NCBI GenBank assembly: GCA_964016885.1
Contig: OZ024752.1
Coordinates: 48,484,001-48,548,000, forward strand
DNA: 64,000 nucleotides
Origin: Eledone cirrhosa
Taxonomy: Eukaryota
Direction: 5' to 3'
Shown here one piece after another: positions 5,846 to 61,700 of this stretch. The notes under the pieces are model-generated. The model worked only from the letters and a program-made list of their open reading frames with translations, was not told where the DNA came from and did no database searches. The stretch's first letter is position 1. Each line of letters starts with the position of its first letter. The translations under genes and the position numbers were made by a program.

Positions 5846-6399
5846 TCGACAGTCGATCAATTTTTGTCAAATCGGACCGAGGAAACAATGTTTTCATTTC
5901 ATTTCATTTCATTTTACGTCCGCTTTTTCCCTGCTTGCAAGGGTGGTACGGGAACTGATTCTGGCTTGATTTCTACAGCTGGATGCCCTTCCTAACACCA
6001 ACCTCATTTACAATGAGTGCTGGGTGCTTTTTTGCCGTGGCACCTCCACGACCACTTTGCAGTGGAATGATAGGGACCCCAGTCTCTATCATCTCATTTC
6101 TACAGCTGAATAAACTGGAGCAATGTGAAATAAAGTGTCTTGCTCAAGGAAACAACACATCACCCGGTCTGAGAATTGAACTCACAACCTTTCGATTGCA
6201 AGGCCAATGCTCTAACCACAAAGCCATGTGCCTCCATTTCATTGGTCTTTCCAATTGCTAATACTATCTATTGGTCGCAACTCCAACATGAAATAAAGTG
6301 TCTTGCTCAAGGACATAATGCATCGCCTAGTCCGGGAATTGAGCTCACAACCTCACGATTGCGAATCCAGTTCTCTAACCACTCAGCCACGCGCTTTCA
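5846..6399 (-). mobile_element. tRNA-derived SINE family S2, interrupted by an S1 SINE
   Basis: Halves ...GAGGAAACAATGTTT / CATTGGTCTTTCCAATTGCTAATAC... are contiguous in the intact copy at 62165-62373; Pol III A/B boxes on the minus strand near 6390 and 6345. Confidence 0.85.
5899..6235 (-). mobile_element. tRNA-derived SINE family S1 with RTE-type 3' tail
   Basis: Near-identical reverse complement of 35746-36092; probable TSD TTTCATT at 5892-5898 and 6237-6243. Confidence 0.9.
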
Positions 6400-6806: not shown

Positions 6807-6954
6807 CAATAAAAATCTTTTGATGTTGTAGACGCTCTTGTGTTCTTTATCATATATATATATATATATACGTTATTCCGGGTTGAATCGGAGGTAACCA
6901 CAGTATGTAAGGTACTCAATACATTGCAGAGTATAAAAGTTTTAATATAGATGA

Positions 6955-7003
6955 GATTCTACAGGACTAGAACTGTTTCATTCTTTAGAAATCATCAGGA
7001 ATC
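6955..7003 (-). ncRNA. Type I hammerhead ribozyme (family A, minus arm)
   Basis: Exact reverse complement of 7008-7056. Confidence 0.85.
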
Positions 7004-7007
7004 AGAT

Positions 7008-7056
7008 GATTCCTGATGATTTCTAAAGAATGAAACAGTTCTAGTCCTGTAGAATC
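7008..7056 (+). ncRNA. Type I hammerhead ribozyme (family A, plus arm)
   Basis: GATTC-CTGATGA-T TTC TAAA GAA T-GAAA-CAG TTCTAGTC CTG-TA-GAATC: 5-bp stem I, intact core, stem III ACAG/CTGT, GUA cleavage predicted after 7051. Confidence 0.85.
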
Positions 7057-7068
7057 TCATCTATATTA

Positions 7069-7142
<74 letters not shown>

Positions 7143-7383
7143 TACATATATATATATATAATATGTATATAGATACATATATACAAATATATATATATAC
7201 ACAGATAAGATACATATATATAATATATAAGATCAAAAGATGGTTAAAAGAGTTCCATGTATTTTATTATGCGCATTTCAAAAACAAATATCATCATGCA
7301 ATAACATTTGCGTTTTCGTCAGATAAAATAGGGAGACATGATATGAAGGTTAAAACACACTTGTGAATAGTGCAGTTTTAAAT

Positions 7384-7418
<35 letters not shown>

Positions 7419-7665: not shown

Positions 7666-7700
<35 letters not shown>

Positions 7701-8194
7701 CAGAGAGAGAGAGCACAGATGACTAAGTCAACAACAAAGTTGGCAGATGGTTACAAGGTCAAAAGTTCATACCATGCTGCTATCACTGTATTATGACAAT
7801 TGCTAAAGCATTTAAATTAATTTATCTATTAATCTTATTTCCTTGTTACCATCTGATATTTGGTCTTTTTTACTTTTATCAAGTCTATATAAAGCAGGCA
7901 ATTATGTACAAATACCTATGTTCACTGACGAGGTTTAATAAGTCGAAACATTCCAAGTTTTTAAACAGTGTTTCTACTATACAGAGGTGGTCATAACTGG
8001 ACCCAAAAACCTAAGGTTGTGCATACATGTTAAGTGTATGAAATTTTAATTACAGCAAAATAATATATTATACTTTGTGAATGCTTTGTAAAAAAAATAT
8101 ATACATGAATCCAACATTGTACAGGTAGAAAGGTGAAATTATAAAAGATAGAAAATTCCTCATTTACCAAACTTACCTGGATAAATCCATACAT

Positions 8195-8254
8195 TCAAAT
8201 AAAGTATGGTTGATTTGAAGTAAAGTTCATAAAAATCTTCATTTCTTTTTTAAG
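8195..8254 (-). CDS. Candidate last coding segment (exon 8177-8254) of an unidentified gene
   Basis: Acceptor TATTTTATTTCAG at 8255, donor CAG|GTAAGT at 8177/8176; phase-0 reading LKKEMKIFMNFTSNQPYFI* is compatible with the phase-0 end of exon 10109-10219. Confidence 0.4.
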   Translation of the reverse strand, partial: LKKEMKIFMNFTSNQPYFI

Positions 8255-8299
8255 CTGAAATAAAATATATTTTTTGCACATTCTCTGCCACCAATTTAG

Positions 8300-8580
8300 G
8301 CGCTTTGACCACAAACCCTGGTACCATGGTCCACAATAGAAAGGACAGGAAGACAAGCAGATACCAGGGATTGTCCGACTGCTTCCTCTTTGCACTGGTC
8401 ACTGTCAAGACCTCAGGTGTCCTTGGACCTGATACAGCTCAGCTGAGCTCCTCTGTAAAATCAGAATATCAGTCAGCAGTCCATCTAAGGCTGGAGCTTT
8501 GTGATGTGGCATGGCTGTTGCAGCATGTGTCACTGGCCATTGTCTGCAGAAATCCCTTTGCAGCTTTGTCCACAGGGTGC
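8300..8580 (+). pseudogene. Degenerate C-terminal fragment of a CRE-like (REL-endonuclease) non-LTR retrotransposon
   Basis: DRKTSRYQGLSDCFLFALVTVKTSGVLGP...WLLQHVSLAIVCRNPFAALS resembles the K..KY / F.P.A.ET.G..G / QR.S.A..RGN pattern at the end of CRE-clade ORFs. Confidence 0.5.
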
Positions 8581-9365
8581 AACCAAAATACTGCCCCAAC
8601 CTAGACATAAAGTCTGTCACCCTCTTCTCTTCCCCTCTCTTTCTTCTGTTACCTAATAGTCCTTGCTCTTTCCCTCCTTTTTATTCTTATTTATGGCATT
8701 TATAGTTCTTTCCTTTACTTTCCTATACAGCCAGATCTGCCCTTCTTTATCTCGTCCCCCTTATTTTCATTACTTAATTTTGTTTTTATATATTTTTTTT
8801 TAATATTTCCATCATTGTATAACTTTTATTTATAAAATTTAATTGACATAAAATAAAATATATTGACAACAAAATATGTTTTACATGTTTACAAGAACAA
8901 TAGATAAATATAAATATAGATTAAAATTTTAATTGCTTCATGTAATTAAATGTCTTCAGTCAATTTCATATATACCTGATATCCCCCCCTCCATACACAG
9001 GCACACATGTATTCCATGACTCGTACACTGTTCATTTATGACGACGTAGAAAAACAACAGCCAATGGCAAGACAAGAGTGGAAGATGTTTTTTGAAGGTG
9101 TTTTTTGAAGCTAACACCCCAGTGAGAAAATTTGCTCCAAAAGCATTGCAGGTGTCCGAAGAACCTGCAGTTATAGAATCAGGCAGATCCATACAATGAT
9201 CATGTATCCAGCTATCTGCCAGCGAAACAATTGTAACACGCAATAAACTGAGTCTAGATGCATCACTGATTTTTCGTTTTTTTATATTATATCCCACTCT
9301 GTTCTGTAAGAACATAGAGTGCTCAACTGGCATACCGCCTATGGAAGCACCATAGCTACCATTAA

Positions 9366-9406
<41 letters not shown>

Positions 9407-9553
9407 TGAGAGAGAGAGAGAAGAAATACTAAATAAATTATGTAATGATGCCTATAAATTATAACTCATTTTTTTTCATTATCAGCTTGGGGTTTAGAAT
9501 ATAATTTAAGAATAAGTTCTTAAAAAAACTTAAAACGAAAGGTTTTATTTTAA

Positions 9554-9773
9554 CCCTTTAACATTTAAACCAGCTGTATCCTCCAGAATTCTTTCACCTC
9601 TTTCTGTTCAAACTCGCTGTAACTGGCCACTCATTCTGACAATAAGGTATTGTTCTCATAATAAGAAACATCAAAATCTTATAGACTTGAGATTTTGTGA
9701 AATAATTATGTCAGATAAAACCTTTACCACGAAAATATAATAGTATATATAGAGTAATGTAAATGCTAAAGGG
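9554..9773. mobile_element. piggyBac-type MITE (family M)
   Basis: TTAA|CCCTTTAACATTTA ... TAAATGCTAAAGGG|TTAA terminal inverted repeats with TTAA target site. Confidence 0.9.
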
Positions 9774-9792
9774 TTAATTATAAACATTTTAA

Positions 9793-10003
9793 CCCTTTAG
9801 CATTTAAACTGGCCAGAATTCTCTCATCCCTTTCTGTTCAAACCAGCTGTAACTGGCCGCTCATACTGAAGATAAGGTATTGTTATCAAAATAGATAATA
9901 TCAAAATCTCATAGATTCAATATTATATAAGATAATACTGTAAGATAAAACCTTTACCACAAAAATATAATAGTATATAGAGAGTTATGTAAATGCTAAA
10001 GGG
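9793..10003. mobile_element. piggyBac-type MITE (family M), second adjacent copy
   Basis: TTAA|CCCTTTAGCATTTA ... TAAATGCTAAAGGG|TTAA. Confidence 0.9.
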
Positions 10004-10108
10004 TTAAATATGAACATTTTAAAACATAAGTTTTTGTCCCAGAATCAGGGGCAGTTTGAGGTGAGTTGGCATAAAAAAAGTTTCGAATTACAATCTGAAA
10101 TGACTTAC

Positions 10109-12347: not shown

Positions 12348-12618
12348 TATATGTTTGTGTGTGTATGTATATACATACACAGAAGATTTGCCTTCCCACA
12401 TGAGTAGAGTTATATGCAAGGAAAGAGAGAAGATGTAGACAGGAGGGATATTCCTGTCCTCCTGCCACTCCTCATTCTCACCCTCTCTCCAAATGTCCCT
12501 TCACCCATATTCTTTGCCCTTCAATTCCCCTGTCTAACCCATGCCAGAACAAAAAAACAAAACAAAAAAAAAACAAAACAAAAGTTTTGCTTCCAAGACA
12601 CCATTTAATATTTCACAT

Positions 12619-13032
12619 TTTCCATGCTTCAGCAACTCTGAGGATGAAAAAATGTTTCCGAAAGTCATGGGAGCTGTGTGGTTTCCTGACTTTGTGGGCA
12701 TGTCCAGGTGTGTTAGACACATGGAACTCAAAAAGGTACTCAGGGTTGTTGTTGGCAAGATGGTTAATAATTTTGTGGGTGTTTACCAAGTCAGTTGCCA
12801 GGCGTCGCAGCTTCAATGTATCCATGCCCAAGGAAGCAAGGCGCTCAGAGTATGGTAGATGCCTGATGGAGGGTATTCGCTTGGTTGCACGTCTCTGAAC
12901 AGTTTCCAGGCGGTCAATGTTCTGAGCAAGATAGGGGTTCCAGACTGGTGATGCAAATTCTAAGTGTGGCCGCACCATAGCCATGTACAGCCTTAAATAG
13001 ATAGCTGGAGAGCGGCTGACAAAGGTCTTGCT
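12619..13032 (-). pseudogene. CR1/L2-group LINE ORF2 C-terminal fragment
   Basis: LYMAMVRPHLEFASPVWNPY...LETVQRRATKRI...YSERL..L...L..RR...D...FF.LRVAEAW, the typical post-RT region of CR1-group LINEs. Confidence 0.92.
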
Positions 13033-13439
13033 ATCTATATACAGCTACACAGAGATTCCATACACTTCGATTTGGAAGTATATTTGGTAGCGGCACAGAC
13101 ACGGTAGATGTAGAATTGTAGACATAGCAATGAGGTTTTGAAGTTTTATTTGTAACAATATCATTTCAGGTTCTGTCCCACACAGTGGTACTTACCACAT
13201 GTATCATCCAAAATAGCCTAAGGTTGAACAATGCTTTGTGAGAAAAATTTAGGAAATGGAAACTGTATGGAAGAGTAATGGCTGAATAAATATATATGTA
13301 TGTGTATTGTGTGTACATATGCCTGGCAGCAGTCCGGCTTAATATGAAGTAAGTACTAGATTTTCAAAGAATATAAGTGCTCAGGTTGATTCAATCATCT
13401 AAGCTCTTGATGGCTGTGTCTCAATATGGCCACTTTCGA

Positions 13440-19560
<6,121 letters not shown>

Positions 19561-19618: not shown

Positions 19619-19903
19619 GGAAAGTTATATTTTAAATTGTTGGGTTACAACTAGTAAATATTTATAACTGATATAAAAGCACTCGACAAATATTTGGAGT
19701 ATATTTACAATATTAAATAAATGGAAACCTCTCCAAATGGAAGTCGGTGTTTATAACGGTATGTCGAATATATTTATCTATAAAACTGTTTATATTGTAT
19801 TTTGTCTGAGGAAGGCATAGCATATTGTTAATATGATATCCCCGAAATATATATAATGAAATAGATATGGTTTTATAAATATAGTTTCCATTTATTTAAT
19901 ATT

Positions 19904-19904
<1 letters not shown>
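19619..19904. mobile_element. Hammerhead-bearing Penelope-like element (family D), partial inverted structure
   Basis: Homologous to 36111-36532; 21-bp inverted pair 19708-19728/19884-19904; (TA)n flanks. Confidence 0.7.
19798..19863 (+). ncRNA. Minimal type I hammerhead ribozyme motif (family D, diverged)
   Basis: TATTTTGT-CTGAGGA-AGG..CATATT GTT AATATG..CCC-GAAA-TATATA-TA-ATGAAATA; stem I is 8 bp with two G-U pairs; palindromic stem III region. Confidence 0.65.
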
Positions 19905-19983
<79 letters not shown>

Positions 19984-25497: not shown

Positions 25498-25571
<74 letters not shown>

Positions 25572-25823
25572 TGCAAGATGGCGTAGGACAGAACAAAGGA
25601 GAGGCACAAAAACAAAGAAAAGAATCCCCAGTCACTGAAGAGGTCACAGAATGTGTGACGAAAGAACTTTGACAATATATAAACAACCATCTGGTTGTGG
25701 AACCAACCAACCAACCGGAAATTTATAAATTCCTAAATTTATAAATTTATTGTAATAAATTGAAGTGAAAGCAACTGGTGCGTGTGTTTCTTATTGGCAA
25801 CATGACCCTCCCAAAGTATAACA

Positions 25824-25825: not shown

Positions 25826-25860
<35 letters not shown>

Positions 25861-25889
25861 GTTATGCAATAAACAACATAAGACAATTA

Positions 25890-25962
25890 TTCCATTTACC
25901 AAAGGTTTCACGAAGACGGAAGAGCTCGACACAGCCTTCTGAAATCGTTCGTCAGAATGAAA
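25890..25962 (-). ncRNA. Type I hammerhead ribozyme
   Basis: Minus strand TTTCATT-CTGACGA-ACGA...GAAG..CTTC...TCGT-GAAA-CC TTT GG-TA-AATGGAA; 7-bp stem I with one G-U; GUA triplet. Confidence 0.8.
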
Positions 25963-26126
25963 TTTTATAACTAAATAGCTCTGTAGCCTACATAGAGCAC
26001 TCTCCTTTCCTTTATATATATATGTATATATATATATGTATGTGTATGTATGAACATGTGTGTATGTATGAACATGTGTGTATGTATTATGTATGTCAAG
26101 GAGCCTTACCACAGGATGCAGTTTAA

Positions 26127-26335
26127 CCCTTTAGCATTTAAACCGGCTGTATCCGGCCAGAATTCTCTCACCTCTTTCTGTTCAAACCAGCCGTAACTGG
26201 CCACTCACACTTATGTTAAGGTATTGTTCTCAAAATAAATAAATATTAAGATCTTGTAGATTCGATATTATGCAAGATAAAGCCTTTACCTAAAAAATAC
26301 AACAATGTATATAGAGTAATGTAAATGCTAAAGGG
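26127..26335. mobile_element. piggyBac-type MITE (family M), reference-like intact copy
   Basis: Perfect 14-bp TIR CCCTTTAGCATTTA with TTAA on both sides; 209 bp. Confidence 0.93.
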
Positions 26336-26423
26336 TTAATGTCATACCCAAATCAAAAAATCTTATATCATAATTTTAATGAAGAGCCTTTGTTAAATTA
26401 TTACCAAACAACAGCTTATTATT

Positions 26424-26610
26424 GGTCGATTGGCAGTATCAGTGGAGGGTCGGACGCCATGCTTTCCAGCATAGTTACGTCCCTTTACAATCTGAGTTCA
26501 AATCCCGCCTAGGTTGACTTTGCCTTTCATCCTTACGGGGTCGATAAAATAAAGTACCAGTAATGCACTGGGTAATTGCTGGCCTTGTGCCTAAAGTAGA
26601 AACAATTATT
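26424..26610 (+). mobile_element. SINE family S3
   Basis: TGGCAGTATC.GT A-box-like head, GAGTTCAAATCC B box, conserved core, ATT tail. Confidence 0.88.
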
Positions 26611-26653
26611 GGTTTCTAAGATAGGCACAAGGCCAGAAATTTGGGAGAAATCA

Positions 26654-28133: not shown

Positions 28134-28277
28134 ATATATATATATCCTACTAGGGTCAACTTTGCTTTTGTAACTTCTGGGATTGATAAAATAATGTACC
28201 AAATATATTGTAGCTCACCAAGTTAACTATATTGTAGCAAGTCTCATTGATAAAGTTGCAGGTCTGTCTAATGTACA

Positions 28278-30572
28278 GACACTGGTGTTGGTTATATGGT
28301 ATCTGTAAAGTTACTAGTGTGGGAACTAACTCATGGGGGACACTGGTGTTGGTTATATGGTATCTGTAAAGTTACTAGTGTGGGAACTAACTCATGGGAG
28401 ACACTGGTGTTGGTTATATGGTATCTGTAAAGTTACTAGTGTGGGAATTAACTCATGGGAGACACTGGTGTTGGTTATATGGTATCTGTAAAGTTACTAG
28501 TGTGGGAACTAACTCATGGGAGACACTGGTGTTGGTTATATGGTATCTGTAAAGTTACTAGTGTGGGAATTAACTCATGGGAGACACTGGTGTTGGTTAT
28601 ATGGTATCTGTAAAGTTACTAGTGTGGGAACTAACTCATGGGAGACACTGGTGTTGGTTATATGGTATCTGTAAAGTTACTAGTGTGGGAACTAACGCAT
28701 GGGAGACACTGGTGTTGGTTATATGGTATCTGTAAAGTTACTAGTGTGGGAACTAACTCATGGGGGACACTGGTGTTGGTTATATGGTATCTGTAAAGTT
28801 ACTAGTGTGGGAACTAACTCATGGGAGACACTGGTGTTGGTTATATGGTATCTGTAAAGTTACTAGTGTGGGAACTAACTCATGGGAGACACTGGTGTTG
28901 GTTATATGGTATCTGTAAAGTTACTAGTGTGGGAACTAACGCATGGGAGACACTGGTGTTGGTTATATGATATCTGTAAAGTTACTAGTGTGGGAACTAA
29001 CTCATGGGAGACACTGATGTTGGTTATATGGTATCTGTAAAGTTACTAGTGTGGGAACTAACTCATGGGAGACACTGGTGTTGGTTATATGGTATCTGTA
29101 AAGTTACTAGTGTGGGAATTAACTCATGGGAGACACTGGTGTTGGTTATATGGTATCTGTAAAGTTACTAGTGTGGGAACTAACTCATGGGAGACACTGG
29201 TGTTGGTTATATGGTATCTGTAAAGTTACTAGTGTGGGAATTAACTCATGGGAGACACTGGTGTTGGTTATATGGTATCTGTAAAGTTACTAGTGTGGGA
29301 ACTAACTCATGGGAGACACTGGTGTTGGTTATATGGTATCTGTAAAGTTACTAGTGTGGGAACTAACGCATGGGAGACACTGGTGTTGGTTATATGGTAT
29401 CTGTAAAGTTACTAGTGTGGGAACTAACTCATGGGGGACACTGGTGTTGGTTATATGGTATCTGTAAAGTTACTAGTGTGGGAACTAACTCATGGGAGAC
29501 ACTGGTGTTGGTTATATGGTATCTGTAAAGTTACTAGTGTGGGAACTAACTCATGGGAGACACTGGTGTTGGTTATATGGTATCTGTAAAGTTACTAGTG
29601 TGGGAACTAACGCATGGGAGACACTGGTGTTGGTTATATGATATCTGTAAAGTTACTAGTGTGGGAACTAACTCATGGGAGACACTGATGTTGGTTATAT
29701 GGTATCTGTAAAGTTACTAGTGTGGGAACTAACTCATGGGAGACACTGGTGTTGGTTATATGGTATCTGTAAAGTTACTAGTGTGGGAATTAACTCATGG
29801 GAGACACTGGTGTTGGTAATATGGTATCTGTAAAGTTACTAGTGTGGGAATTAACTCATGGGAGACACTGGTGTTGGTTATATGGTATCTGTAAAGTTAC
29901 TAGTGTGGGAACTAACTCATGGGAGACACTGGTGTTGGTTATATGGTATCTGTAAAGTTACTAGTGTGGGAACTAACTCATGGGAGACACTGGTGTTGGT
30001 TATATGGTATCTGTAAAGTTACTAGTGTGGGAACTAACTCATGGGAGACACTGGTGTTGGTTATATGGTATCTGTAAAGTTACTAGTGTGGGAACTAACT
30101 GATGGGAGACACTGGTGTTGGTTATATGGTATCTGTAAAGTTACTAGTGTGGGAACTAAGTCATGGGAGACACTGGTGTTGGTTATATGGTATCTGTAAA
30201 GTTACTAGTGTGGGAACTAACTCATGGGAGACACTGGTGTTGGTTATATGGTATCTGTAAAGTTACTAGTGTGGGAACTAACTCATGGGAGACACTGGTG
30301 TTGGTTATATGGTATCTGTAAAGTTACTAGTGTGGGAACTAACTCATGGGAGACACTGGTGTTGGTTATATGGTATCTGTAAAGTTACTAGTGTGGGAAC
30401 TAACGCATGGGAGACACTGGTGTTGGTTATATGATATCTGTAAAGTTACTAGTGTGGGAACTAACTGATGGGAGACACTGGTGTTGGTTATATGGTATCT
30501 GTAAAGTTACTAGTGTGGGAACTAACTCATGGGAGACACTGGTGTTGGTTATATGGTATCTGTAAAGTTACT
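28278..30572. repeat. 61-bp satellite, about 37.6 copies
   Basis: Unit GACACTGGTGTTGGTTATATGGTATCTGTAAAGTTACTAGTGTGGGAACTAACTCATGGGA, very homogeneous. Confidence 0.97.
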
Positions 30573-35493: not shown

Positions 35494-36092
<599 letters not shown>

Positions 36093-36244
36093 AGATATAT
36101 ATATATATATGCAGAGGTTATATTTAATTTGTTGGGATTCAACAAGCATAAACATTTTTATAACTGATATAAAGCACTCAACAGTTTAGTGGAGTAAATA
36201 TACAATATATTAACAAATGGAAACTATATTTATAAAACCATATT

Positions 36245-36310
36245 TATTTTATTATACATATTTCAAGGGCCACCAAGGCAAATTATGGTGTGCTTTCATC
36301 AGATAAAATA
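36245..36310 (-). ncRNA. Type I hammerhead ribozyme (family D, minus arm)
   Basis: Reverse complement of 36423-36488. Confidence 0.82.
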
Positions 36311-36422
36311 CAATACAGATTTATTTTATAAATAAATGTTGACATACCCTGAAAAAAGACAACCTTAATGGTTGGGAGCTTCCTGGATAGTCAATATTTA
36401 TTTATAAAATAAATCTGTATTG

Positions 36423-36488
36423 TATTTTATCTGATGAAAGCACACCATAATTTGCCTTGGTGGCCCTTGAAATATGTATAATAAAATA
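36423..36488 (+). ncRNA. Type I hammerhead ribozyme (family D, plus arm)
   Basis: TATTTTAT-CTGATGA-AAG..CACCA..TGGTG..CTT-GAAA-TATGTA-TA-ATAAAATA; perfect 8-bp stem I. Confidence 0.82.
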
Positions 36489-36533
36489 AATATGGTTTTA
36501 TAAATATAGTTTCCATTTGTTAATATATTGTAC

Positions 36534-36582
<49 letters not shown>

Positions 36583-36803
36583 TACATATATATATATACA
36601 TATATACATACATATATATATATATACATATATACATACATATATGTATATATATATATATACATACATATATACATACATATATATATATATACATATA
36701 TATATACATATATGTATATATATATATACATATATGTATATATATATACACACATATATATATATATACATATATGTACATATATATACTATATACATAT
36801 ATG

Positions 36804-36843
<40 letters not shown>

Positions 36844-36974
36844 CTACATACATATGTATATATATATGTATGTATATATATACATACATATATATATATA
36901 TATATACATACATACATACATATATATATATACATACATATATATATATACATACATACATATATATATATATA

Positions 36975-37008
<34 letters not shown>

Positions 37009-37082
37009 CATACATACATACATACATATATATATATATACATACATACATACATACATATATATACATACATACATATATA

Positions 37083-37134
<52 letters not shown>

Positions 37135-37756
37135 CATACATATATATATATATATATATACATACATACATAGATACATATACACATATATATATATATA
37201 TATACATATATATATAGTATATATATATATATGTATGTATATATATATATATAGAGAGAGAGAGACATATATGTATATATTATATATATGTACATATATG
37301 TATATATATATATATGTGTGTATGTATATATATATATATATATATATACATACATATATATAGTCTTAATATTGGCTTTTCCAGCAAAACTTCTCACCCA
37401 ACATTGAAGCTCTTATCTTGACAATATTTTGACAGCTGCCAATTTTTTTTGTAGGCGTGGGGGGGGGGGACACAATACATAGTAAAACAACAACAACAAC
37501 AACAACAACAACACAATAACTACAAGGAAACAACTGCTGCTTCTGTTGCTGATGGTGTTGATAGGATTAATAATAGTAATGATTTGATGACAATAGCAAT
37601 GATGATGATGGTGATGATGATGATGGTGACGATGATGGTGATGATGGTGATGATGGTGGTGGTGGTGATGATGGTGATGATGATGATGATGATGGTGGTG
37701 GTGACAGTTATGGTGATGATGATGATGATTTGGGTAATAATAATAATATTAACAAT

Positions 37757-37852
37757 AATAATTGTTTCAACTTTAGGCACAAGGCCAGCAATTACCCAAT
37801 ACATTACTGGTACTTTATTTTATCGACCCCGTAAAGATGAAAGGCAAAGTTA
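37757..37852 (-). mobile_element. 5'-truncated SINE S3
   Basis: Reverse complement of the S3 core and tail. Confidence 0.8.
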
Positions 37853-37916
37853 ATCATCAGTGATTTCCTTCAAATGAAACAGTTCTAAACCTGTAGAAGC
37901 CATTTCTATATTAAAC

Positions 37917-37957
<41 letters not shown>

Positions 37958-37981
37958 TTGCATCATAAAATATTTAATAGA

Positions 37982-38069
37982 ACATTACATATGTTTCACT
38001 GTCGATCAGCTCGAGGAACGATCTATTATTGATCGAACCTGACTCTGGAATCGAAAGATCCTCAGATGT
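37982..38069 (-). ncRNA. Minimal hammerhead with long stem II
   Basis: Minus strand ACAT-CTGAGGA-[61 nt with TCGAT/ATCGA and CGATC/GATCG pairs]-GAAA-CATATG-TA-ATGT; palindromic ACATATGT. Confidence 0.7.
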
Positions 38070-38075
38070 GCCTCA

Positions 38076-38142
<67 letters not shown>

Positions 38143-38156
38143 CATATATATCTATA

Positions 38157-38381
38157 TCCAAAATTAAGATAAATTAAATGAATTTAATCCAAATCGAAAT
38201 TGTGGGTGTCATGCAATAACGGCGTGCGCCATATCGCCTGGGAATAAGCTCAAAGATATATCCGAGCATTTTATAATAACTAGAAATTGATTAACATATA
38301 AATATACATGAATAATCACAGGAGATAATTATCTCCTGTGATTATTTATGTATATTTATATGTTAATCAATTTCTAGTTAT
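38157..38381. mobile_element. Tail plus zero-spacer 106-bp palindrome in (TA)n
   Basis: Arms 38276-38328/38329-38381 with one G-T mismatch. Confidence 0.65.
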
Positions 38382-38783: not shown

Positions 38784-40842
38784 GGCGATGGGAGAAAGAT
38801 GAGGGAAAAATGTTTTAGCATGTGCAACATATCTGCAAAATAGTTGTGTGTGTGAGTGTGTAGTGTGTGTGTGTGTGTACGTAGTTAGGTGGAGGCATAG
38901 GGATGTATATAGGGAGGGGGCGTGGAAGAAAGAAGAAGAAGAAGAAAAAGAAGAAAAAGAAGAAGAAAAAGAAGAAGAAAAAGAAGAAGAAAAAGAAGAA
39001 AACGAAGAAGAAGTAAAAGAAGAAGAAAACGAAGAAGAAAAAGAAGAAAACGAAGAAGAAAAAGAAGAAGAAAACGAAGAAGAAGAAAAAGATGAAGAAG
39101 AAGAAGAAAATGAAGAAAAAGAAAAATGAAAACAAAGAAAAAGAAGAAGACAAAGAAGAAGGAGACGAAGAAGAAGAAGAAAAGGAGCAGAGAGTGACCT
39201 TGCTGTTTGCTCCCACAACCTCCCACAGCCCTGGTCCCCACCCCCTCCCCCACTCCTAACACACAAACTACTTCAACTGTAAAATATTCCCTGATTTAAA
39301 AGCTTAACTCACACCCCTCCCTCCACCCCTCGCTTCCATATATCCCTCCCTTCCTGCTTCCCTGCACCCATCCCTCCCTCTCTTCCGTCCCCCTCCTTCC
39401 CTCCCTCCCTCTATATAACAACACCAACAACACCACCATTACTCGGGGCTGACCTGGGGCTAAACAACAATAACAACAACATCACAACCATTACCCAGAG
39501 TTTATCTACAACAACAGCAACAACAACAACAACAACATCCAACATACCAACAACAACAACAACACCATCCAACCTACCAACAACAACAACAACAACACCA
39601 TCCAACCTACCAACAACAACAACAACAACACCATCCAACATACCAACAACAACAACAACAACACCACCCAACCTACCAACAACAACAACAACAACACCAT
39701 CCAACCTACCAACAACAACAACAACAACACCATCCAACCTACCAACAACAACAATCTCATACCTCAATCACTATGTTAGGATTTCACATCAAACGTCACC
39801 ACCACCATCATAACCACCACCACCACCACTACCACCACCATCACTACCCATTACAGCATCATAAACATCACCACCAACACTACTAACACCACCACCATCA
39901 ACACTAACACCACCAACACCACCACACCACCACCATCACCATCAACACTAACACCACCAACATCACCAACACAACCATCCACCACCACCACCCCCACCAC
40001 ACATACCACCATCACCACCACCACCATCACCACCAACACTACCATCACCACCACCACCACCATCACCACCAACACTACCATCACCACCAACACTACCATC
40101 ACCACCATCAACACTAACACCACCACCACCAACACCACCAACACAACCATCCACCACCACCACCACCACCATCACCATCACCACCAACACTACCATCACC
40201 ACCACCACCAACACTACCATCACCACCATCAACACTAACACCATCAACACTAACACCACCACCACCACCACTATCACCACCATCACCACCACACATACCA
40301 CCATCACCACCCCCACTGTCACCCCCACCACTACTGAGTTAGTTAATGCCTTAATAACTTGATGTGTGATTAACATCTCCTAAGAAAAATTATCCAGAGT
40401 ATTTTTTAGAGCGGGGGTGGGGTGGTATGTGGGTGAGGGGTGGGCGAGGGGTGGGTGAGGGGTTTGTGGGATGTGGGTGGGGGTGGGGGTGATGTTAGTG
40501 ATGATGTTTATAACAATGGTGATGATATTGTTGCTTAGTTATATTGGTATGTAATAGTTGTAGTAGTAGTGGTGGTGGTAGTGGTGGCGATAGTAGTAGT
40601 AGTGGTGGTGGTGGTGGTGATAGTAGTGGTGGTGGTGGTGGTGGTGGTGGTGGTGATAGTAGTAGTGGTGATGGTGGTGGTGATAGTAGTAGTGGTGGTG
40701 GTGGTGGTGGTGATAGTAGTAGTAGTGGTAGTGGTGGTGGTGGTGGTGGAATGGTGGAATGTATCGCTGTAGTTGCTGTTTCATCCTTATTGTATTCTTA
40801 TGGGATGGCCAGCAATGGAATGAATATATATATATATATAAA

Positions 40843-41062
40843 TAAGATGGTGTAGGACAGAACAAAGGAGAGACACAAAATAAAAACCCAGTCACTGAGG
40901 AGGTTACAGAATGTGTGACGAAAGAGCTTTGACAATATATATACAACCATCTGGTTATCAAACCAACCAACCAACCAACCAGAAATTTATAATAAATTGA
41001 CGTGAAAACCAACAGGTGCATGTGTTTTTATTGGCAACATGACCCTCCCAAAATATAACAAT
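40843..41062 (+). mobile_element. Hammerhead-bearing element family B, copy 2
   Basis: Homologous to 25572-25825; (TA)n flanks. Confidence 0.75.
40891..40933 (+). ncRNA. Minimal type I hammerhead motif (family B)
   Basis: GTCA-CTGAGGA-G-GTTACA GAATG TGTGAC-GAAA-GAGC-TT-TGAC. Confidence 0.65.
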
Positions 41063-41309: not shown

Positions 41310-41476
41310 CCTCGGCGGGATTTGAACTCAGATCATAGAGTTACCTCCCTGTATGATCTGAGTTCAAATCCCGCCGAGGTTAACTTTGCCTTTCATCCTT
41401 CCGGGTTCGATAGAATAAAGTACCAGTAATGCATTGGGTAATTGTTGGCCTTGTGCCAAAAGTAGAAACAATTATT
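41310..41476 (+). mobile_element. SINE S3 with 5' inverted duplication
   Basis: 28-bp arms 41310-41337/41352-41379; TSD ATTATTAAAAT at 41298-41308 and 41471-41481. Confidence 0.85.
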
Positions 41477-41950: not shown

Positions 41951-42435
41951 TGTCTATACATTTATGTTGTGTTAATGAAGATCTGGTCATTGGATTTGTC
42001 TATTTAATTATTGGCGAAAACAAAATCATTTCTCTTCTTAGCTCTACCAGTAATTACATCTCAGTTGTGTTTGTTTTAACTCTTTTGTGACCATATTTCT
42101 AATTAAAATATACTCTATATTAATTAATTAAAGAAGAATTTTTATAGATTTACTATAATTACTATTTATTTCATTACTAAGATTATAACTTAAACTGTGT
42201 TAAAAGACTTTAAGCTAAATGAGAACTCTTTAAAATTAAAAGTTTTGTCTCATAGCACTAGAGGTGATTTTGGCACATGTCAGAACATGAAGAAGACATA
42301 GCTACCTGCCAAATGTCACAACTAAACATTAAAAATATCATACATACCTGTAGATTAGTCACACTGTAGATAAGTCACACCCTTTCCTTATGAAAATATA
42401 ATGCAGAATTTATGGTGTCACTCTAAGTTACATCG

Positions 42436-43446
42436 GTAGATAAGTCATACGAGGAGGTAAGTCACAGCTGTAGATAAGTCATACCAGGAGGTAAGTCACA
42501 GCTGTAGATAAGTCATACCAGGAGGTAAGTCACAGCTGTAGATAAGTCATACCAGGAGGTAAGTTACACCTGTAGATAAGTCACAGCTGTAGATAAGTCA
42601 CAACTGTAGATAAGTCACAGCTGTAGATAAGTCACAACTGTAGATAAGTCACAGCTGTAGATAAGTCACAGCTGTAGATAAGTCACAGCTGTAGATAAGT
42701 CACAGCTGTAGATAAGTCACAGCTGTAGATAAGTCACAGCTGTAGATAAGTCACAGCTACAGATAAGTCACAGCTGTAGATAAGTCACAGCTGTAGATAA
42801 GTCACAGCTGCAGATAAGTCACAGCTGTAGATAAGCCACAGCTGTAGATAAGTCACAGCTGTAGATAAGTCACAGCTGTAGATAAGTCACAGCTGTAGAT
42901 AAGTCACAGCTGTAGATAAGTCACAGCTACAGATAAGTCACAGCTGTAGATAAGTCACAGCTGTAGATAAGTCACAGCTGTAGATAAGTCACAGCTGTAG
43001 ATAAGTCACAGCTGTAGATAAGTCACAGCTGTAGATAAGTCACAGCTACAGATAAGTCACAGCTGTAGATAAGTCACAGCTGTAGATAAGTCACAGCTGT
43101 AGATAAGTCACAGCTGTAGATAAGCCACAGCTGTAGATAAGTCACAGCTGTAGATAAGTCACAGCTGTAGATAAGTCACAGCTGTAGATAAGTCACAGCT
43201 GTAGATAAGTCACAGCTGTAGATAAGTCACAGCTGTAGATAAGTCACAGCTGTAGATAAGTCAAAGCTGTAGATAAGTCACAGCTGTAGATAAGTCACAG
43301 CTGTAGATAAGTCACAGCTACAGATAAGTCACAGCTGTAGATAAGTCACAGCTGTAGATAAGTCACAGCTGTAGATAAGTCACAGCTGCAGATAAGTCAC
43401 AACTGTAGATAAGTCACAGCTGTAGATAAGTCACAACTGTAGATAA
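42436..43446. repeat. 17-bp minisatellite (CTGTAGATAAGTCACAG)n preceded by 34-bp dimeric units
   Basis: About 50 monomers from ~42570; four diverged 34-bp units at 42436-42570; seed copies at 42348-42380. Confidence 0.95.
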
Positions 43447-43651
43447 GGAATGGCTCTTCCAAAGCATTTCCCTCACCATCCTCTAGGGGGTAAATGTCTT
43501 CTCTATTCTGTCCACCGTGGTTACGGGGGTGGCCAGCACATGGGCCCCTATTTACTCATAATAGTGAGAGACGGTGGGGGAGCAAGTGAGACAGAGGCAG
43601 TGAGGGACTTCTAGAGTACTTTAGACAGTAAAATAATAATAATTTCTTTAA

Positions 43652-44162
43652 CCCTTTGCCATTTACATTACACTATATTTTCTATTGTATTTTCATGGTA
43701 AATGCTTTACCCTCACATAACATTTACATTACTCTATATTTACTATTGTATTTTCATGGTAAATGCTTTACCTCACATAACATTTACATTACACTATATT
43801 TACTATTGTATTTTCATGGTAAATGCTTTACCCTCACATAACATTTACATTACACTATATTTACTATTGTATTTTCATGGTAAATGCTTTACCTCACATA
43901 ACATTTACATTACACTATATTTACTATTGTATTTTCATGGTAAATGCTTTACCCTCACATAACATTTACATTACACTATATTTACTATTGTATTTTCATG
44001 GTAAATGCTTCACCCTCACATAATATCGAATCTATAAAATTTTGATATTATTTTTTTTAGAACAATACTTTAACATCAGTATGAGGGGCTGGTTACAGCT
44101 GGTTTGAACAGAAAGAGGTGAGAGTATTCTGGCCGGATATGGCCGGTTCAAATGCTAAAGGG
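43652..44162. mobile_element. Family M MITE (reverse orientation) with internal 60/61-bp tandem array
   Basis: TTAA|CCCTTT ... AAATGCTAAAGGG|TTAA; six copies of ATTTACATTACACTATATTTACTATTGTATTTTCATGGTAAATGCTTTACC(C)TCACATAAC; extra terminal repeats to ~44211. Confidence 0.9.
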
Positions 44163-46582: not shown

Positions 46583-47348
46583 GGGAGAGAAAAGGGAGGG
46601 GGAGAAAAAGAGAGAGAGAGAGAAAGGAGGGAGAGAAAAAGAGACAGAGAGAGAAAGGAGGGAGAGAGAAAGAGAGAGAGAGAGAGGGGGAGGGAGGGAT
46701 AAATGCAGGGTGAGATATATATATAAATACAGAGAGGGAATTAAGAAATACATTTCTTTGGTTTTACCTTTGCTCTTACTGGAATTCCTTGCAGCAATAG
46801 TTGAACCATTTCCATTTTAAATCTAATCTAAGTTCCTCCATACTTAACAGACAGAAACACTTCTCTTAATGTTGTTGTTGTTGTTATTGTTGTTATTTTT
46901 GTTATTATTGTTGTTTTACTTGTTATTGTTGTTATTGCTTTTTATTTTTCTATATGTTTGTTTTTTTCTTTATATTTCTTGTTGTTGTTGTTGTTGCTAT
47001 TGTTGTTTATTGTATTTATTTCTCTTTTGTTTTTGCTTTGTTTTTTATTTTTTTGCTTTGTTTGTTTATTTGTTGTTTTAAGTTGATCCTTAAGAAATTA
47101 TGTTAAACATAATGTCAGGCTGAATAACAACAAAAAATATAAAACAACAAAAAAAAATATAAAAAACAATACAAAAACAAATATAAAAACAAAATGAAGC
47201 GCTTATGTAAAAATAAGGATTGTTTGTCCAACAACAGAAGTAGATACAAATTGACACAAACTAATTTAACTGCTTTGATACCAACCTTGCCAAAACCTGG
47301 TTTTGATCTTAAACATAAAACAATGTATTTTAAATGGTTCCTACTTAA

Positions 47349-48474
47349 CCCATTAGCATTTAAACTGGCCATAACCAGCCATATCTGGCCAGAATTCTCT
47401 CAGCTCTTTCTTTTCAAACTAGCTGTAACCGGCCATATCTGGCCAGAATTCTCTCACCTCTTTCTATTCAAACTAGCTGTAACCGGCCATATCTGGCCAG
47501 AATTCTCTCAGCTCTTTCTTTTCAAACTAGCTGTAACCGGCTGTATCTGGCCAGAATTCTCTCAGCTCTTTCTGTTCAAACTAGCTGTAACCGGCCATAT
47601 CTGGCCAGAATTCTCTCAGCTCTTTCTTTTCAAACTAGCTGTAACCGGCCATATCTGGCCAGAATTCTCTCAGCTCTTTCTTTTCAAACTAGCTGTAACC
47701 GGCCATATCTGGCCAGAATTCTCTCACCTCTTTCTTTTCAAACTAGCTGTAACCGGCCATATCTGGCCAGAATTCTCTCAGCTCTTTCTTTTCAAACTAG
47801 CTGTAACCGGCTGTATCTGGCCAGAATTCTCTCAGCTCTTTCTGTTCAAACTAGCTGTAACCGGCCATATCTGGCCAGAATTCTCTCAGCTCTTTCTTTT
47901 CAAACTAGCTGTAACCGGCCATATCTGGCCAGAATTCTCTCAGCTCTTTCTTTTCAAACTAGCTGTAACCGGCCGTATCTGGCCAGAATTCTCTCACCTC
48001 TTTCTGTTCAAACTAGCTGTAACCGGCCGTATCTGGCCAGAATTCTCTCACCTCTTTCTGTTCAAACTAACTGTAACCGGCCGTATCTGGCCAGAATTCT
48101 CTCACCTCTTTCTGTTCAAACTAGCTGTAACCGGCTGTATCTGGCCAGAATTCTCTCACCTCTTTCTGTTCAAACTAGCCGTATCCGGCCATATCTGGCC
48201 AGAATTCTCTCACCTCTTTCTGTTCAAACTAGCTGTAACCGGCCATATCTGGCCAGAATTCTCTCACCTCTTTCTCTTCAAACTAGCCGTATCCGGCTGT
48301 ATCCCGCCAGAGTTCTCTCACCTCTTTCTATTCAAACCAACTATATCTGGCAGCTCATACTGACATGAAAGTATTATTCTCAAAATAAATAACAACTAAA
48401 TCTTGTAGATTCGATATTATGTGAGATAATTATGTACCGTGAAAATACAATAGAGTAATATAAATGCTAAAAGG
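47349..48474. mobile_element. Family M MITE with internal 54-bp tandem array (18 units)
   Basis: TTAA|CCCATTAGCATTTA ... TAAATGCTAAAAGG|TTAA; unit GGCCATATCTGGCCAGAATTCTCTCAGCTCTTTCTTTTCAAACTAGCTGTAACC. Confidence 0.92.
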
Positions 48475-50140: not shown

Positions 50141-50143
<3 letters not shown>

Positions 50144-50334
50144 GGAATGAGTAGGACCCCAATGGCTGAGCTCAAGCTGTTTCGACGGCTAATTCTGTCC
50201 AGAATAAGCCGTCGAAACGGCTTGAGCTCAGCCGTCGGGGTCCTACTCGTTCCTATTACCCACTCTACTACCCTAAGTATTGAGTACTTTAGTGCGTTAT
50301 GGTCCATCTGGTTCCTTACCACATTTCCTTCGTT
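50141..50334 (+). mobile_element. Hairpin-plus-tail element family C (3' half of a hammerhead), copy 1
   Basis: Hairpin 50141-50256; GAAA-CGGCT TGAGCTC AGCCG-TC at 50214-50236; tail with TATTGAGTAC. Confidence 0.75.
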
Positions 50335-54019: not shown

Positions 54020-54208
54020 ATAGGAAAAAGTATGACCCCGACGGCAGAGCTCAAGCCGTTTCGATGGCTATTGAGTCCAGAAATAGCTGTCAAAACGGCT
54101 TGAGCTCTGCCATCGGGGTCATACTTTTTCCTATTACCCACTCTACTACCCTAAGTATTGAGTACTCTGGTGCGTTATGGTCCATCTGGTTCCTTACCAC
54201 ATTTCCTT
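54020..54208 (+). mobile_element. Hairpin-plus-tail element family C, copy 2
   Basis: Hairpin 54020-54134 and the same tail as 50257-50334. Confidence 0.75.
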
Positions 54209-56448: not shown

Positions 56449-56928
56449 CCCTTTAGCATTCACATTACTCTATATACACTATTTTCATCCTTACGGGGTC
56501 AATAAAATAAAGTACCAGTAATGCACTGGGTAATTTCTGGCCTTGTGCCAAAAGTAGAAACAATTATATTTTCATGATGGATTGGCAGTATCGGTAGAGG
56601 GTCGGACGCTCTTTCCAACATAGTTACGTCCCTTTACGATCTGAGTTCAAATCCCGCCATGTTGACTTTGCCTTTCATCCTTACGGGGTCGATAAAATAA
56701 AGAACCATTAATGCACTGGGGTAATTGCTGGCCTTGTGCCGAAAGTAGAAACAATTATATTTTCATGATAAATGCTTTACCTCACATATTATCGAATCTA
56801 TGAGATTTTGAAAGTATTTATTTTGAGAACAATACCTTAACATCAGTTTGAGCGACCAGTTACAGCCAGTTTCAACAGATAAAGGTAGTGAATTCTGGCC
56901 GGTTTTGGCCGGTTTGAACATTAAAGGG
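56449..56928. mobile_element. Family M MITE carrying two nested S3 SINE insertions
   Basis: TIRs with TTAA; S3 pieces at ~56483-56567 and ~56579-56758 bounded by repeated TATTTTCAT(GAT); three 15-bp terminal repeats to the left. Confidence 0.82.
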
Positions 56929-56932
56929 TTAA

Positions 56933-57405
56933 ACCGGACATATCTGGCCAGAATTCTCTCGCCTCTTTCTGTTCAAATCAACCATAACTGGCCCCTCATA
57001 AGGTATTGTTCTCAAATAAATAATTGTTTCTACTTTTGGCACAAGGCCAGCAATTAACCCAGTGCATTACTGGTACTTTATTTTATCGACCCCGTAAGGA
57101 TGAAAGGCAAAGTTAACCTCGGCGTGATTTGAACTCAGAACGTAAAGGGCCATAACTCTATGCTGTAAAGCATGGTGTCTGACGCTCTACTGATGCTGCC
57201 AATTCACCGCCCTTATAGTAATAATAATAATAATAATAATTGTTTCTACTTTTGGCACAAGGCCAGCAATGACACCAGTGCATTACTGGTACTTTATTTT
57301 ATCGACCCCGTAAGGATGAAAAGCAAAGTAATAAATAATATCAAAATCTCATAGATTCGATATTATGTGAGCTAAAGTGTTTACGGTGAAAATACAATAA
57401 TATAT
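56933..57405. mobile_element. Partial family M MITE with two minus-strand S3 SINEs (57021-57211, 57238-57329)
   Basis: MITE sequence resumes at AATAATATCAAAATCTCATAGATTCG after the SINEs. Confidence 0.78.
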
Positions 57406-58938: not shown

Positions 58939-59207
<269 letters not shown>

Positions 59208-59232
59208 ATATATATATATATATATATATATA

Positions 59233-59412
59233 CGTTATTCCGGGTTGAATCGGAGGTAACCACAGTAAGTAAGGTACTCAATACAATGCAGAGTATAAAA
59301 GTTTTAATATAGATGAGATTCTACAGGACTAGAACTGTTTCATTCTTTAGAAATCATCATGATTTCTAAAGAATGAAACAGTTCTAGTCCTGTAGAATCT
59401 CATCTATATTAA

Positions 59413-59416
<4 letters not shown>
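59233..59416. mobile_element. Family A palindromic element, copy 2 (hammerhead core truncated)
   Basis: Near-identical to 6871-7068; arms 59300-59357/59359-59416. Confidence 0.85.
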
Positions 59417-61280: not shown

Positions 61281-61300
61281 CATAAAGAAATATGCCTTAA

Positions 61301-61520
61301 CCCTTTAGCATTTAAACCAACCATATCTGGCCAGTATTATCTCACTACTTTCTTTTCAAACCGGCTGTAACTGGCCACTCATACTAATGTTAAGGTATGG
61401 TTCTCAAAATAATACTATCAAAATCTAATAGATTCGATATTATGTGAAATAATCATGTAAGGTAAAACCTTTACCACAAAAATACAATAGTATATATAGA
61501 GTAATGTAAATGCTAAAGGG
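61301..61520. mobile_element. Family M MITE (a partial copy follows at ~61605-61690)
   Basis: TTAA|CCCTTTAGCATTTA ... TAAATGCTAAAGGG. Confidence 0.88.
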
Positions 61521-61700
61521 TTACATTTTAAAACATAGGTTTTAGTGCCAGAATCAGGCGCAGTTTGAGGTTGGTTGGCATAAAAAAGTTTCCATTTAAA
61601 AAAGATTTTGTGAGATAATTATGTGAGGTAAAACCTTTACCACTAAAATACAATAGTAAATATAGAGTAATGTAAATGCTGAAGGGTTAATACAAAATAC

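What the first reader, a model, noticed from the sequence alone, without database searches (positions are those of the whole stretch)
36111..36532. 143-bp inverted repeat with twin hammerheads, same architecture as family A but unrelated sequence
Seen: near-perfect arms, a hammerhead in each, a 90-nt tail on one arm only, and the tail-less arm ending directly in TA-rich repeat. Families A, C, D and the 38157 element share this tail-arm-inverted-arm plan. Inference: a common integration mechanism, with one cDNA primed at the RNA 3' end and a second primed at a fixed internal point on the opposite target strand.
Basis: partly seen in the sequence, partly recalled or inferred. Interest (0 to 1): 0.75.

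Follow-up and report, generated by a model that had tools for sequence, protein, structure and literature searches.

The report
Penelope-type two-armed hammerhead insertion
This is one young copy of an abundant repeat whose mirror-image arms, one-sided tail, hammerhead-ribozyme motif and position in a TA run match the known footprint of Penelope-type jumping genes, so the layout is ordinary; only the hint that it may be almost one full turn of a small non-coding RNA unit goes beyond that.

Summary
Observation confirmed: 143-bp arms (36201-36343 / 36390-36532, one mismatch), a minimal type I hammerhead motif on each strand, a 90-nt one-sided tail, TA repeat at both ends. A 78%-identical sister lies at 19619-19906. 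So it is not a MITE. But the plan is the published footprint of Penelope-like elements (inverted truncated copy, one-sided tail, palindromic junctions, (TA)n targets, two reverse-transcription starts), and this scan already reported it, and the end hairpin, many times on other DNA of this genome. Corrections: both starts are likely internal, not the RNA 3' end; the two hammerheads are a by-product of inversion; families share a TATT plus bulged-hairpin end motif also seen in Hydra-clade elements. The junction is a 2-nt microhomology at the base of a natural hairpin. An unproven lead: the unit may be a ~290-nt non-coding retrozyme copied almost one full turn. No genome was held, so partner ORF, copy number and empty sites are untested.

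The parts
36111..36200 (-). One-sided 90-nt tail of the tail-bearing arm, ending in (TA)n
   Evidence: about 80% like the sister tail 19624-19728
36120..36155 (-). Predicted terminal hairpin of the tail with an A/C-rich loop, kept in the sister
   Evidence: z -4.77 (0 of 200 shuffles); sister z -1.91 (11 of 200)
36174..36207 (-). TATT plus RCTC...GAGY bulged hairpin at the point where tail-less arms end; predicted start signal 1
   Evidence: z -2.16
36201..36343 (-). Tail-bearing arm, 143 bp
36245..36310 (-). Minimal type I hammerhead motif, predicted cut after 36253
36344..36389 (-). 46-nt spacer: natural family sequence upstream of the arm; imperfect RNA hairpin in register with the arms
   Evidence: reads and contigs of other copies cover it; z -2.09, 8 of 200 shuffles; 181 of 5000 shuffles as self-complementary
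36390..36391 (.). Inversion junction: 2-nt microhomology at the base of the spacer hairpin
   Evidence: other copies match through 36391 and then continue with different, non-arm sequence (120 reads in X15, 4 contigs in X2)
36390..36532 (+). Tail-less inverted arm, 143 bp
36423..36488 (+). Minimal type I hammerhead motif, predicted cut after 36480
36094..36110 (.). Short (TA)n target on the tail side, behind a SINE-like repeat
36533..37362 (.). TA-rich microsatellite target on the tail-less side
19619..19906 (.). Sister copy of another subfamily: 89-nt tail, 21-bp arms, 155-nt spacer holding the hammerhead, TA on both sides

Best explanation
This is a 422-bp two-armed insertion in a TA microsatellite, likely made by the reverse transcriptase and endonuclease of a Hydra-type Penelope-like element supplied from elsewhere. 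Shown: the anatomy, a fixed tail-less end, variable junctions, a conserved hammerhead fold and a shared end hairpin. Inferred steps: (1) the GIY-YIG endonuclease cuts both strands of (TA)n; (2) each free 3' end primes a cDNA on element RNA at one of two internal start sites about 90 nt apart, helped by TA/AU pairing, so one arm has the tail and one does not; (3) both cDNAs copy through the uncut hammerhead, so the template is uncleaved or re-ligated RNA; (4) they stop at a natural hairpin, one at its 3' foot and one at its 5' foot, where their ends are complementary by construction, and are joined over 2 nt; (5) repair gives the head-to-head repeat. The two hammerheads lie on opposite strands and would be buried in a 143-bp hairpin in any read-through RNA, so they are likely inert at this locus. 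Penelope-type origin about 0.9; the two-start route about 0.6. Whether the family is a ~290-nt non-coding unit (about 0.5) or the 3' end of a longer coding element (about 0.45) is open.
For: Fixed end: among the 24 loose-end rows shown (of 787), those at the arm/tail border read (TA)n joined at the equivalent of 36201-36203: 5220+1309 of 30339 laid reads (X14), 6203+1362 of 33243 (X15), 7951+1527 of 37426 (X16), 73+65+7 of 7033 contigs (X1). In 8 of 8 hand-picked two-armed elements of the window the tail-less end lies between -1 and +6 of a TATT motif. Two 'goes back' joints restart at the same site inside element sequence (partial tandems). Variable junction: 12 of the 15 joint rows shown (of 32) are strand switches, all at different place pairs; window arms are 21-143 bp, spacers 0-155 nt. 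One source: both arms share letters that differ from the family majority (36323/36410) while only 411 of 30339 reads are 99% alike. Hammerhead fold: 44 of 45 cells paired and 4 pairs with double changes in 3 relatives; helix III is self-complementary in all three. End motif: 9 hits against 0.41 expected, one of them (9285-9322) unseen when the motif was drawn and preceded by GAAA plus a palindromic helix III; by eye the motif is clear in 3 of 6 Hydra consensus sequences. Literature: PMC8557442, PMC11167929, PMC3846280.
Against: No RT/endonuclease ORF was linked: the unit has no stop-free stretch over 45 aa and no genome was held. 4 of 8 window elements have spacers of 0-2 nt, which fold-back explains as simply as two independent cDNAs. 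The tail (about 67-118 nt in the window) is longer than the published 30-40 nt. RAD reads are biased to loci with the right cut sites and may stand for few loci; 5 of the 12 strand-switch rows have a single start in every run and could be library chimeras; some joint places recur (36315, 36375, 36212, 36183), perhaps alignment breaks. The end motif was drawn after seeing the elements. The exact focal junction was not seen elsewhere (99%-alike records: 1 of 1011, 0 of 223, 0 of 19, 0 of 2), which proves nothing either way. The 3-sequence covariation count is small and on related sequences.
Confidence: 0.62

Rival explanations
1. Same Penelope-type enzyme, but one cDNA only: it starts at the tail end, stops at the 5' foot of the natural hairpin, folds back, copies itself into the second arm, and the endonuclease cuts at the TATT site to join the target.
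For: Junction in register with a hairpin; spacers of 0-2 nt in 4 of 8 elements; arms share private letters; self-priming was proposed from junction palindromes (PMC3846280); 'EN-mediated resolution' was proposed for the tail (PMC8557442); the purified endonuclease prefers ATT (PMC11167929).
Against: The sister has the reverse geometry (tail-less arm about 180 nt, tail-bearing arm 110 nt), which a copy made from the tail-bearing cDNA cannot give. The hairpin is weak as DNA (-5.6 kcal/mol, z -0.96). Tail-less solo ends and partial tandems start at the same site without an inversion. In vitro both strands are cut and extended from two internal starts.
Confidence: 0.22
2. A plain truncated insertion later made palindromic by DNA repair or replication at the hairpin, or a fold-back error of the assembly.
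For: Inverted duplications occur even inside microsatellites here (36707-36891 vs about 37180-37360; 18201-18453); the exact junction was not seen in four other runs.
Against: A DNA-level or assembly fold-back has no reason to stop at the TATT site, yet 8 of 8 elements do, and reads of three other individuals show the same end.
Confidence: 0.08
3. MITE-like DNA element with terminal inverted repeats and TA target sites.
For: Near-perfect inverted repeats, non-coding, in TA, abundant.
Against: Ends are asymmetric, arm length and junction differ between copies, copies are truncated, and a hammerhead fold is conserved.
Confidence: 0.02

Closest known systems
Hydra clade of C-terminal-endonuclease Penelope-like elements (Craig et al. 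2021, PMC8557442; seen: passages, section 11, supplement searches and parts 2, 52, 53 of 59)
   Same: Inverted 5'-truncated copy, tail at one end only, type I hammerhead with a short self-complementary helix III, (TA)n targets; by eye the TATT plus RCTC...GAGY hairpin is in Hydra-2_Amil, Hydra-2_Ajap and twice before the start codon of Hydra-1_Ajap.
   Different: No ORF in this copy and none linked; tail 90 nt against 30-40 nt stated for PLEs; short motifs of the element found no match at a Hydra end in the supplement, and Hydra-1_Obim shows no likeness by eye.
Poseidon element of Anolis, in vitro (Frangieh et al. 2024, PMC11167929; seen: parts 1-2 of 4 of the text)
   Same: Two internal start sites that define the tail, both target strands cut and extended, AT-rich targets, uncleaved RNA as the main template.
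   Different: Another clade; no sequence comparison made; inverted arms were not reconstituted in the parts I read.
Adineta vaga Penelope elements (Arkhipova et al. 2013, PMC3846280; seen: passages)
   Same: Inverted pLTRs, optional tail on one of them, palindromes at inverted junctions, microhomology at a 5' junction.
   Different: Coding, low-copy, with 8-10 bp target duplications; the authors favour self-priming on an antisense template.
Metazoan non-LTR retrozymes (Cervera and de la Pena 2020, PMC7229834, passages; Li, Clavereau and Pollet 2026, 10.64898/2026.07.22.740005, part 1 of 5 and passages)
   Same: Non-coding, type I hammerhead likely acting as a dimer, inferred unit length in the 170-400 nt range, proposed Penelope link.
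   Different: No tandem of whole units and no circular RNA shown here; inverted arms are not mentioned in the main text of the 2020 paper (0 hits) and only in a reference title in the 2026 one.

Membership tests
Penelope-like element, endonuclease-positive | ORF with telomerase-like RT and GIY-YIG endonuclease | not testable with these tools
   Absent from this 422-bp copy, as expected of a truncated or non-autonomous copy; no genome held to look for the parent.
Penelope-like element, endonuclease-positive | Adjacent inverted 5'-truncated copy | tested here: met
   definition
Penelope-like element, endonuclease-positive | Tail at one end only, with a fixed tail-less end | tested here: met
   90 nt, longer than the published 30-40 nt
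Penelope-like element, endonuclease-positive | Type I hammerhead motif near the 3' end | tested here: met
   cleavage itself untested
Penelope-like element, endonuclease-positive | Partial tandems | tested here: met
   two 'goes back' joints restarting at the tail-less start, 6-17 reads a run, 2-3 starts; few loci
Penelope-like element, endonuclease-positive | Target-site duplication | not testable with these tools
   Both flanks are TA repeat; no empty allele could be read.
Hydra clade | Insertion into (TA)n | tested here: met
Hydra clade | Protein motifs (RWK, DKT, CxCX5C linker, no CCHH) | not testable with these tools
   No ORF at hand.
Hydra clade | Shared end hairpin (not a published defining feature; my comparison) | tested here: inconclusive
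   Clear by eye in 3 of 6 consensus sequences, partial in Hydra-1_Crog, not seen in Hydra-1_Amil or Hydra-1_Obim; no alignment run.
Non-LTR retrozyme | Non-coding unit of about 170-400 nt | tested here: inconclusive
   281 nt without ORF; unit length of about 285-300 nt only inferred from a repeated 8-mer at the 5' limit.
Non-LTR retrozyme | Tandem array of two or more whole hammerhead units | tested here: not met
   Not in this copy or the sister; no wrap-around joint among the 15 of 32 rows shown. Arrays elsewhere are not excluded.
Non-LTR retrozyme | Linear and circular monomer RNA expressed | not testable with these tools
   Needs RNA data or a blot; see Tried and rejected.
MITE | Symmetric terminal inverted repeats, constant length and internal junction | tested here: not met
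Rfam hammerhead families | Score at gathering threshold | tested here: not met
   motif assignment rests on core, stems and covariation instead

The most novel reading that the evidence does not exclude
The family is a ~290-nt protein-free circle-type retrozyme that kept both Hydra start hairpins. The 281-nt tail-bearing arm is then almost exactly one turn of the RNA: the enzyme starts just before hairpin 2, passes hairpin 1 and the re-sealed or uncut hammerhead, and stalls on coming back to hairpin 2, where it or its partner is bound. This would make the two-armed, sub-unit-length copies a record of a one-turn stop, and junctions would cluster at that site. Support: the natural sequence at the 5' limit repeats the subfamily's own hairpin-1 8-mer in both the focal family (window plus read continuation) and the sister; other copies also end there (23 reads in X15 into TA, 1 contig in X5, the sister 6 nt further); depth in X2 falls about 80-fold across the hairpin, partly from alignment loss at an indel. 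Against: no wrap-around read or tandem seen, and the consensus beyond the limit is mixed (agreement 0.57-0.93).
Probability: 0.35. Interest if true: 0.55.

Novelty: new member of a known kind. Interest (0 to 1): 0.3.

Why it matters
How Penelope-like elements make inverted arms and a one-sided tail is named as an open question in PMC8557442. This copy adds one more footprint that fits two internal starts and joining at a hairpin, but it does not decide between that and fold-back, and the scan has richer examples on other DNA of the same genome. If the one-turn reading holds, it would be direct sequence evidence that a Penelope enzyme copies a small circular ribozyme RNA, and a 290-nt template with two start hairpins would be a convenient substrate for an in vitro test.

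Tried and rejected
No whole genome was held, so copy number, genome-wide tables, the coding partner and empty sites could not be examined. Rfam: nothing at gathering score; at E up to 10 only generic hairpin matches such as miRNA precursors, rejected. Exact patterns in metagenome contigs and viral contigs: 0 hits. Run search: no RNA holder listed. Earlier findings by sequence and nearby place: none relevant. Window ORF list and six-frame reading of 7700-9440 showed no Penelope-like ORF by eye; no profile search was run on them. Strand-switch joints 'to 36390' were rejected as evidence: they arise from my reference, which holds both arm ends. Three X2 contigs that cross 36389/36390 with 4-8 differences, and 22 X15 reads covering 36391, hint at other copies joined at the same hairpin, but they have at most 20 letters on the short side, under the tool's 31-letter bar, so they are not counted. 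An 8-of-9 match between the focal tail end and the sister junction (about 1e-3 by a post hoc count) first suggested a 281-nt circle; three of the letters may belong to the other arm and the read consensus differs there, so I gave it little weight. The one arm mismatch (36338) is private to the tail-bearing arm; it fits a copying error or a later mutation and decides nothing. Left out of the 8-element table: SINE-internal hairpins (26574-26641, 41310-41379), the composite 56482-57398 and the microsatellite inversion 18201-18453. Literature: 'Penelope + twin priming + inverted + retrotransposon' gave 2 off-topic papers (listing only); 'Penelope + inverted + tail + fold-back + retrotransposon' gave 0; 'octopus + Penelope + hammerhead' gave nothing on this family (listing only). 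Subscription papers are not in the library, and the supplements of the 2026 preprint and of PMC11167929 and PMC7229834 were not seen; they may describe such families.

Full report
Observation. The element runs 36111-36532 between TA repeats. Its arms are 36201-36343 and 36390-36532, 143 bp with one mismatch, around a 46-nt spacer; 36111-36200 is a 90-nt tail on one arm only. Each arm holds a minimal type I hammerhead motif: CUGAUGA, stem II, GAAA, a 6-nt self-complementary helix III, the UH site and an 8-bp stem I. Such cores occur 8 times in the window against 0.06 in local shuffles. Rfam does not score them. In three related motifs 44 of 45 cells pair and 4 pairs change on both sides (only three, related sequences), and helix III stays self-complementary, the form that works as a dimer in amphibian retrozymes (PMC7229834, passages). 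The two motifs lie on opposite strands, and a whole-element transcript is predicted to fold into one long hairpin of about -240 kcal/mol, so 'twin hammerheads' is a by-product of the inversion.

Other copies. No genome was held. The window has a sister at 19619-19906, about 78% alike, with the same tail start and tail-less end but 21-bp arms and another junction. Laying public runs on the single unit 36111-36389 caught 30339, 33243 and 37426 of about 12.5 million RAD reads each and 7033 contigs. The RAD share is inflated: reads stop at AATT sites and one subfamily has a GCATGC site in stem II, which points to a double-digest library (enzyme names recalled, not from a call). The family is abundant and old enough to have subfamilies; I cannot give a copy number.

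Fixed end: in the 24 loose-end rows shown of 787, the rows at the arm/tail border are (TA)n joined at the equivalent of 36201-36203, in all three read sets and in 145 of 7033 contigs. In 8 hand-picked two-armed elements of four families in the window the tail-less end falls from -1 to +6 of a TATT motif, with TA ambiguity. Variable junction: 12 of the 15 joint rows shown (of 32) switch strand, each at a different pair of places, though 5 have one start per run and some places recur; arm and spacer lengths in the window vary widely. Both predictions hold and a MITE is excluded.

The junction. The spacer is natural family sequence and folds into an imperfect hairpin in register with the arms (z -2.09). 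Other copies match through 36391 and then continue with different sequence, so the focal join is a 2-nt microhomology that is the closing pair of this hairpin. Two identical cDNAs can pair end to end only at self-complementary template, so annealing of two cDNAs and fold-back of one both predict this; palindromic junctions were already described and read as self-priming (PMC3846280, passages). The sister's geometry, with the tail-less arm reaching further upstream, argues against fold-back from the tail-bearing cDNA. Both arms share letters private against the family majority, so they come from one source.

End motif. Bulk sequence is unrelated to the other families, but TATT followed by an RCTC...GAGY bulged hairpin marks the tail-less end: 9 hits against 0.41. 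The motif was drawn after the fact; one hit (9285-9322) was new and proved to follow a GAAA plus palindromic helix III and to end in microsatellite, and one (54047-54085) looks like chance. The 38157 element has a GCTC/GAGC stem at the same place but is not among the 9 hits. By eye the motif is clear in 3 of 6 Hydra consensus sequences of PMC8557442. Earlier notes of this scan report the same motif and a second copy beyond the tail end; I could check that only by eye in Hydra-1_Ajap, where two such hairpins precede the start codon.

Coding end or non-coding unit. Following that lead, the natural sequence at the 5' limit of the focal arm repeats the 8-mer that opens its own first hairpin (window plus read continuation), and the sister's 5' limit repeats its own, different 8-mer (about 1.6 expected in the whole window on both strands). 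If this is hairpin 2, it lies about 90 nt upstream of the hammerhead with no room for an ORF, and the unit is about 285-300 nt. The test is post hoc, the sister's copy could be junction scramble, the read consensus is mixed, and no wrap-around joint or tandem was seen. I put the non-coding unit at about 0.5 and the full one-turn story at 0.35.

Mechanism and comparison. Best reading: a Hydra-type Penelope enzyme cuts both strands of (TA)n, primes two cDNAs at two internal sites, and the cDNAs are joined at the hairpin. The inverted copy, one-sided tail and (TA)n bias are published for these elements (PMC8557442); cutting and extension of both strands from two internal starts that define the tail were shown in vitro for Poseidon (PMC11167929, parts 1-2 of 4). 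All enzymatic steps are inferred here. The host is a microsatellite-rich animal genome; earlier notes call it cephalopod, which I did not test.

Verdict. Real, correctly described, and ordinary for Penelope-like elements; the scan found this plan before on other DNA of the same genome. New member of a known kind, interest 0.3. The retrozyme one-turn reading is the part worth a follow-up with the assembly.

Noticed in passing
window 19619-19906: Sister copy of another subfamily with reversed arm lengths and an intact hammerhead motif on +.
   Followed up: yes
window 6871-7068 and 59233-59416; solo relative 37852-37915: Two-armed family with spacers of 2 and 1 nt, junction inside the hammerhead, tails of about 70 nt.
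   Followed up: partly
window 50141-50330, 54020-54208, 59044-59206: Three two-armed copies of one family, junctions inside hammerhead stem II, all tail-less ends at the same base.
   Followed up: partly
window 38158-38381: Perfect zero-spacer palindrome with a 118-nt structured tail and a GCTC/GAGC version of the end hairpin; no hammerhead core left in the arms.
   Followed up: partly
window 7232-7385: Solo tail-less hammerhead piece with the same stem I as the focal family and a compensated, more stable helix III.
   Followed up: partly
window 25860-26020: Hammerhead arm on - joined to a tail hairpin on +: likely the same plan with arms too short to show as a repeat.
   Followed up: partly
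window 25570-25823, 40840-41060, 37955-38076, 9165-9365: Further hammerhead-type ends in TA repeat, from at least three more families.
   Followed up: partly
window 36707-36891 and about 37180-37360; also 18201-18453: Inverted duplications of 100-190 bp made of simple-repeat sequence inside microsatellites; cause unknown.
   Followed up: no
window 35744-36065 and 5916-6237: SINE-like repeat next to the element with a 97%-identical inverted copy 30 kb away; many more copies in the window.
   Followed up: no
window 12613-13044 (-): 143-aa frame that reads like the C-terminal part of a LINE reverse transcriptase protein (recalled likeness, no search run).
   Followed up: no
window 28277-30572, 42424-43447, 47345-48351, 43660-44023: Homogeneous minisatellites of 61, 17, about 54 and 61 bp; the last two derive from a dispersed repeat also at 9543-10072, 26120-26340, 56750-57020 and 61297-61690.
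   Followed up: no
run X5 (organism B): The family is present in a second species label; one contig ends at the 36390 equivalent in an (AG)n run, not (TA)n.
   Followed up: no
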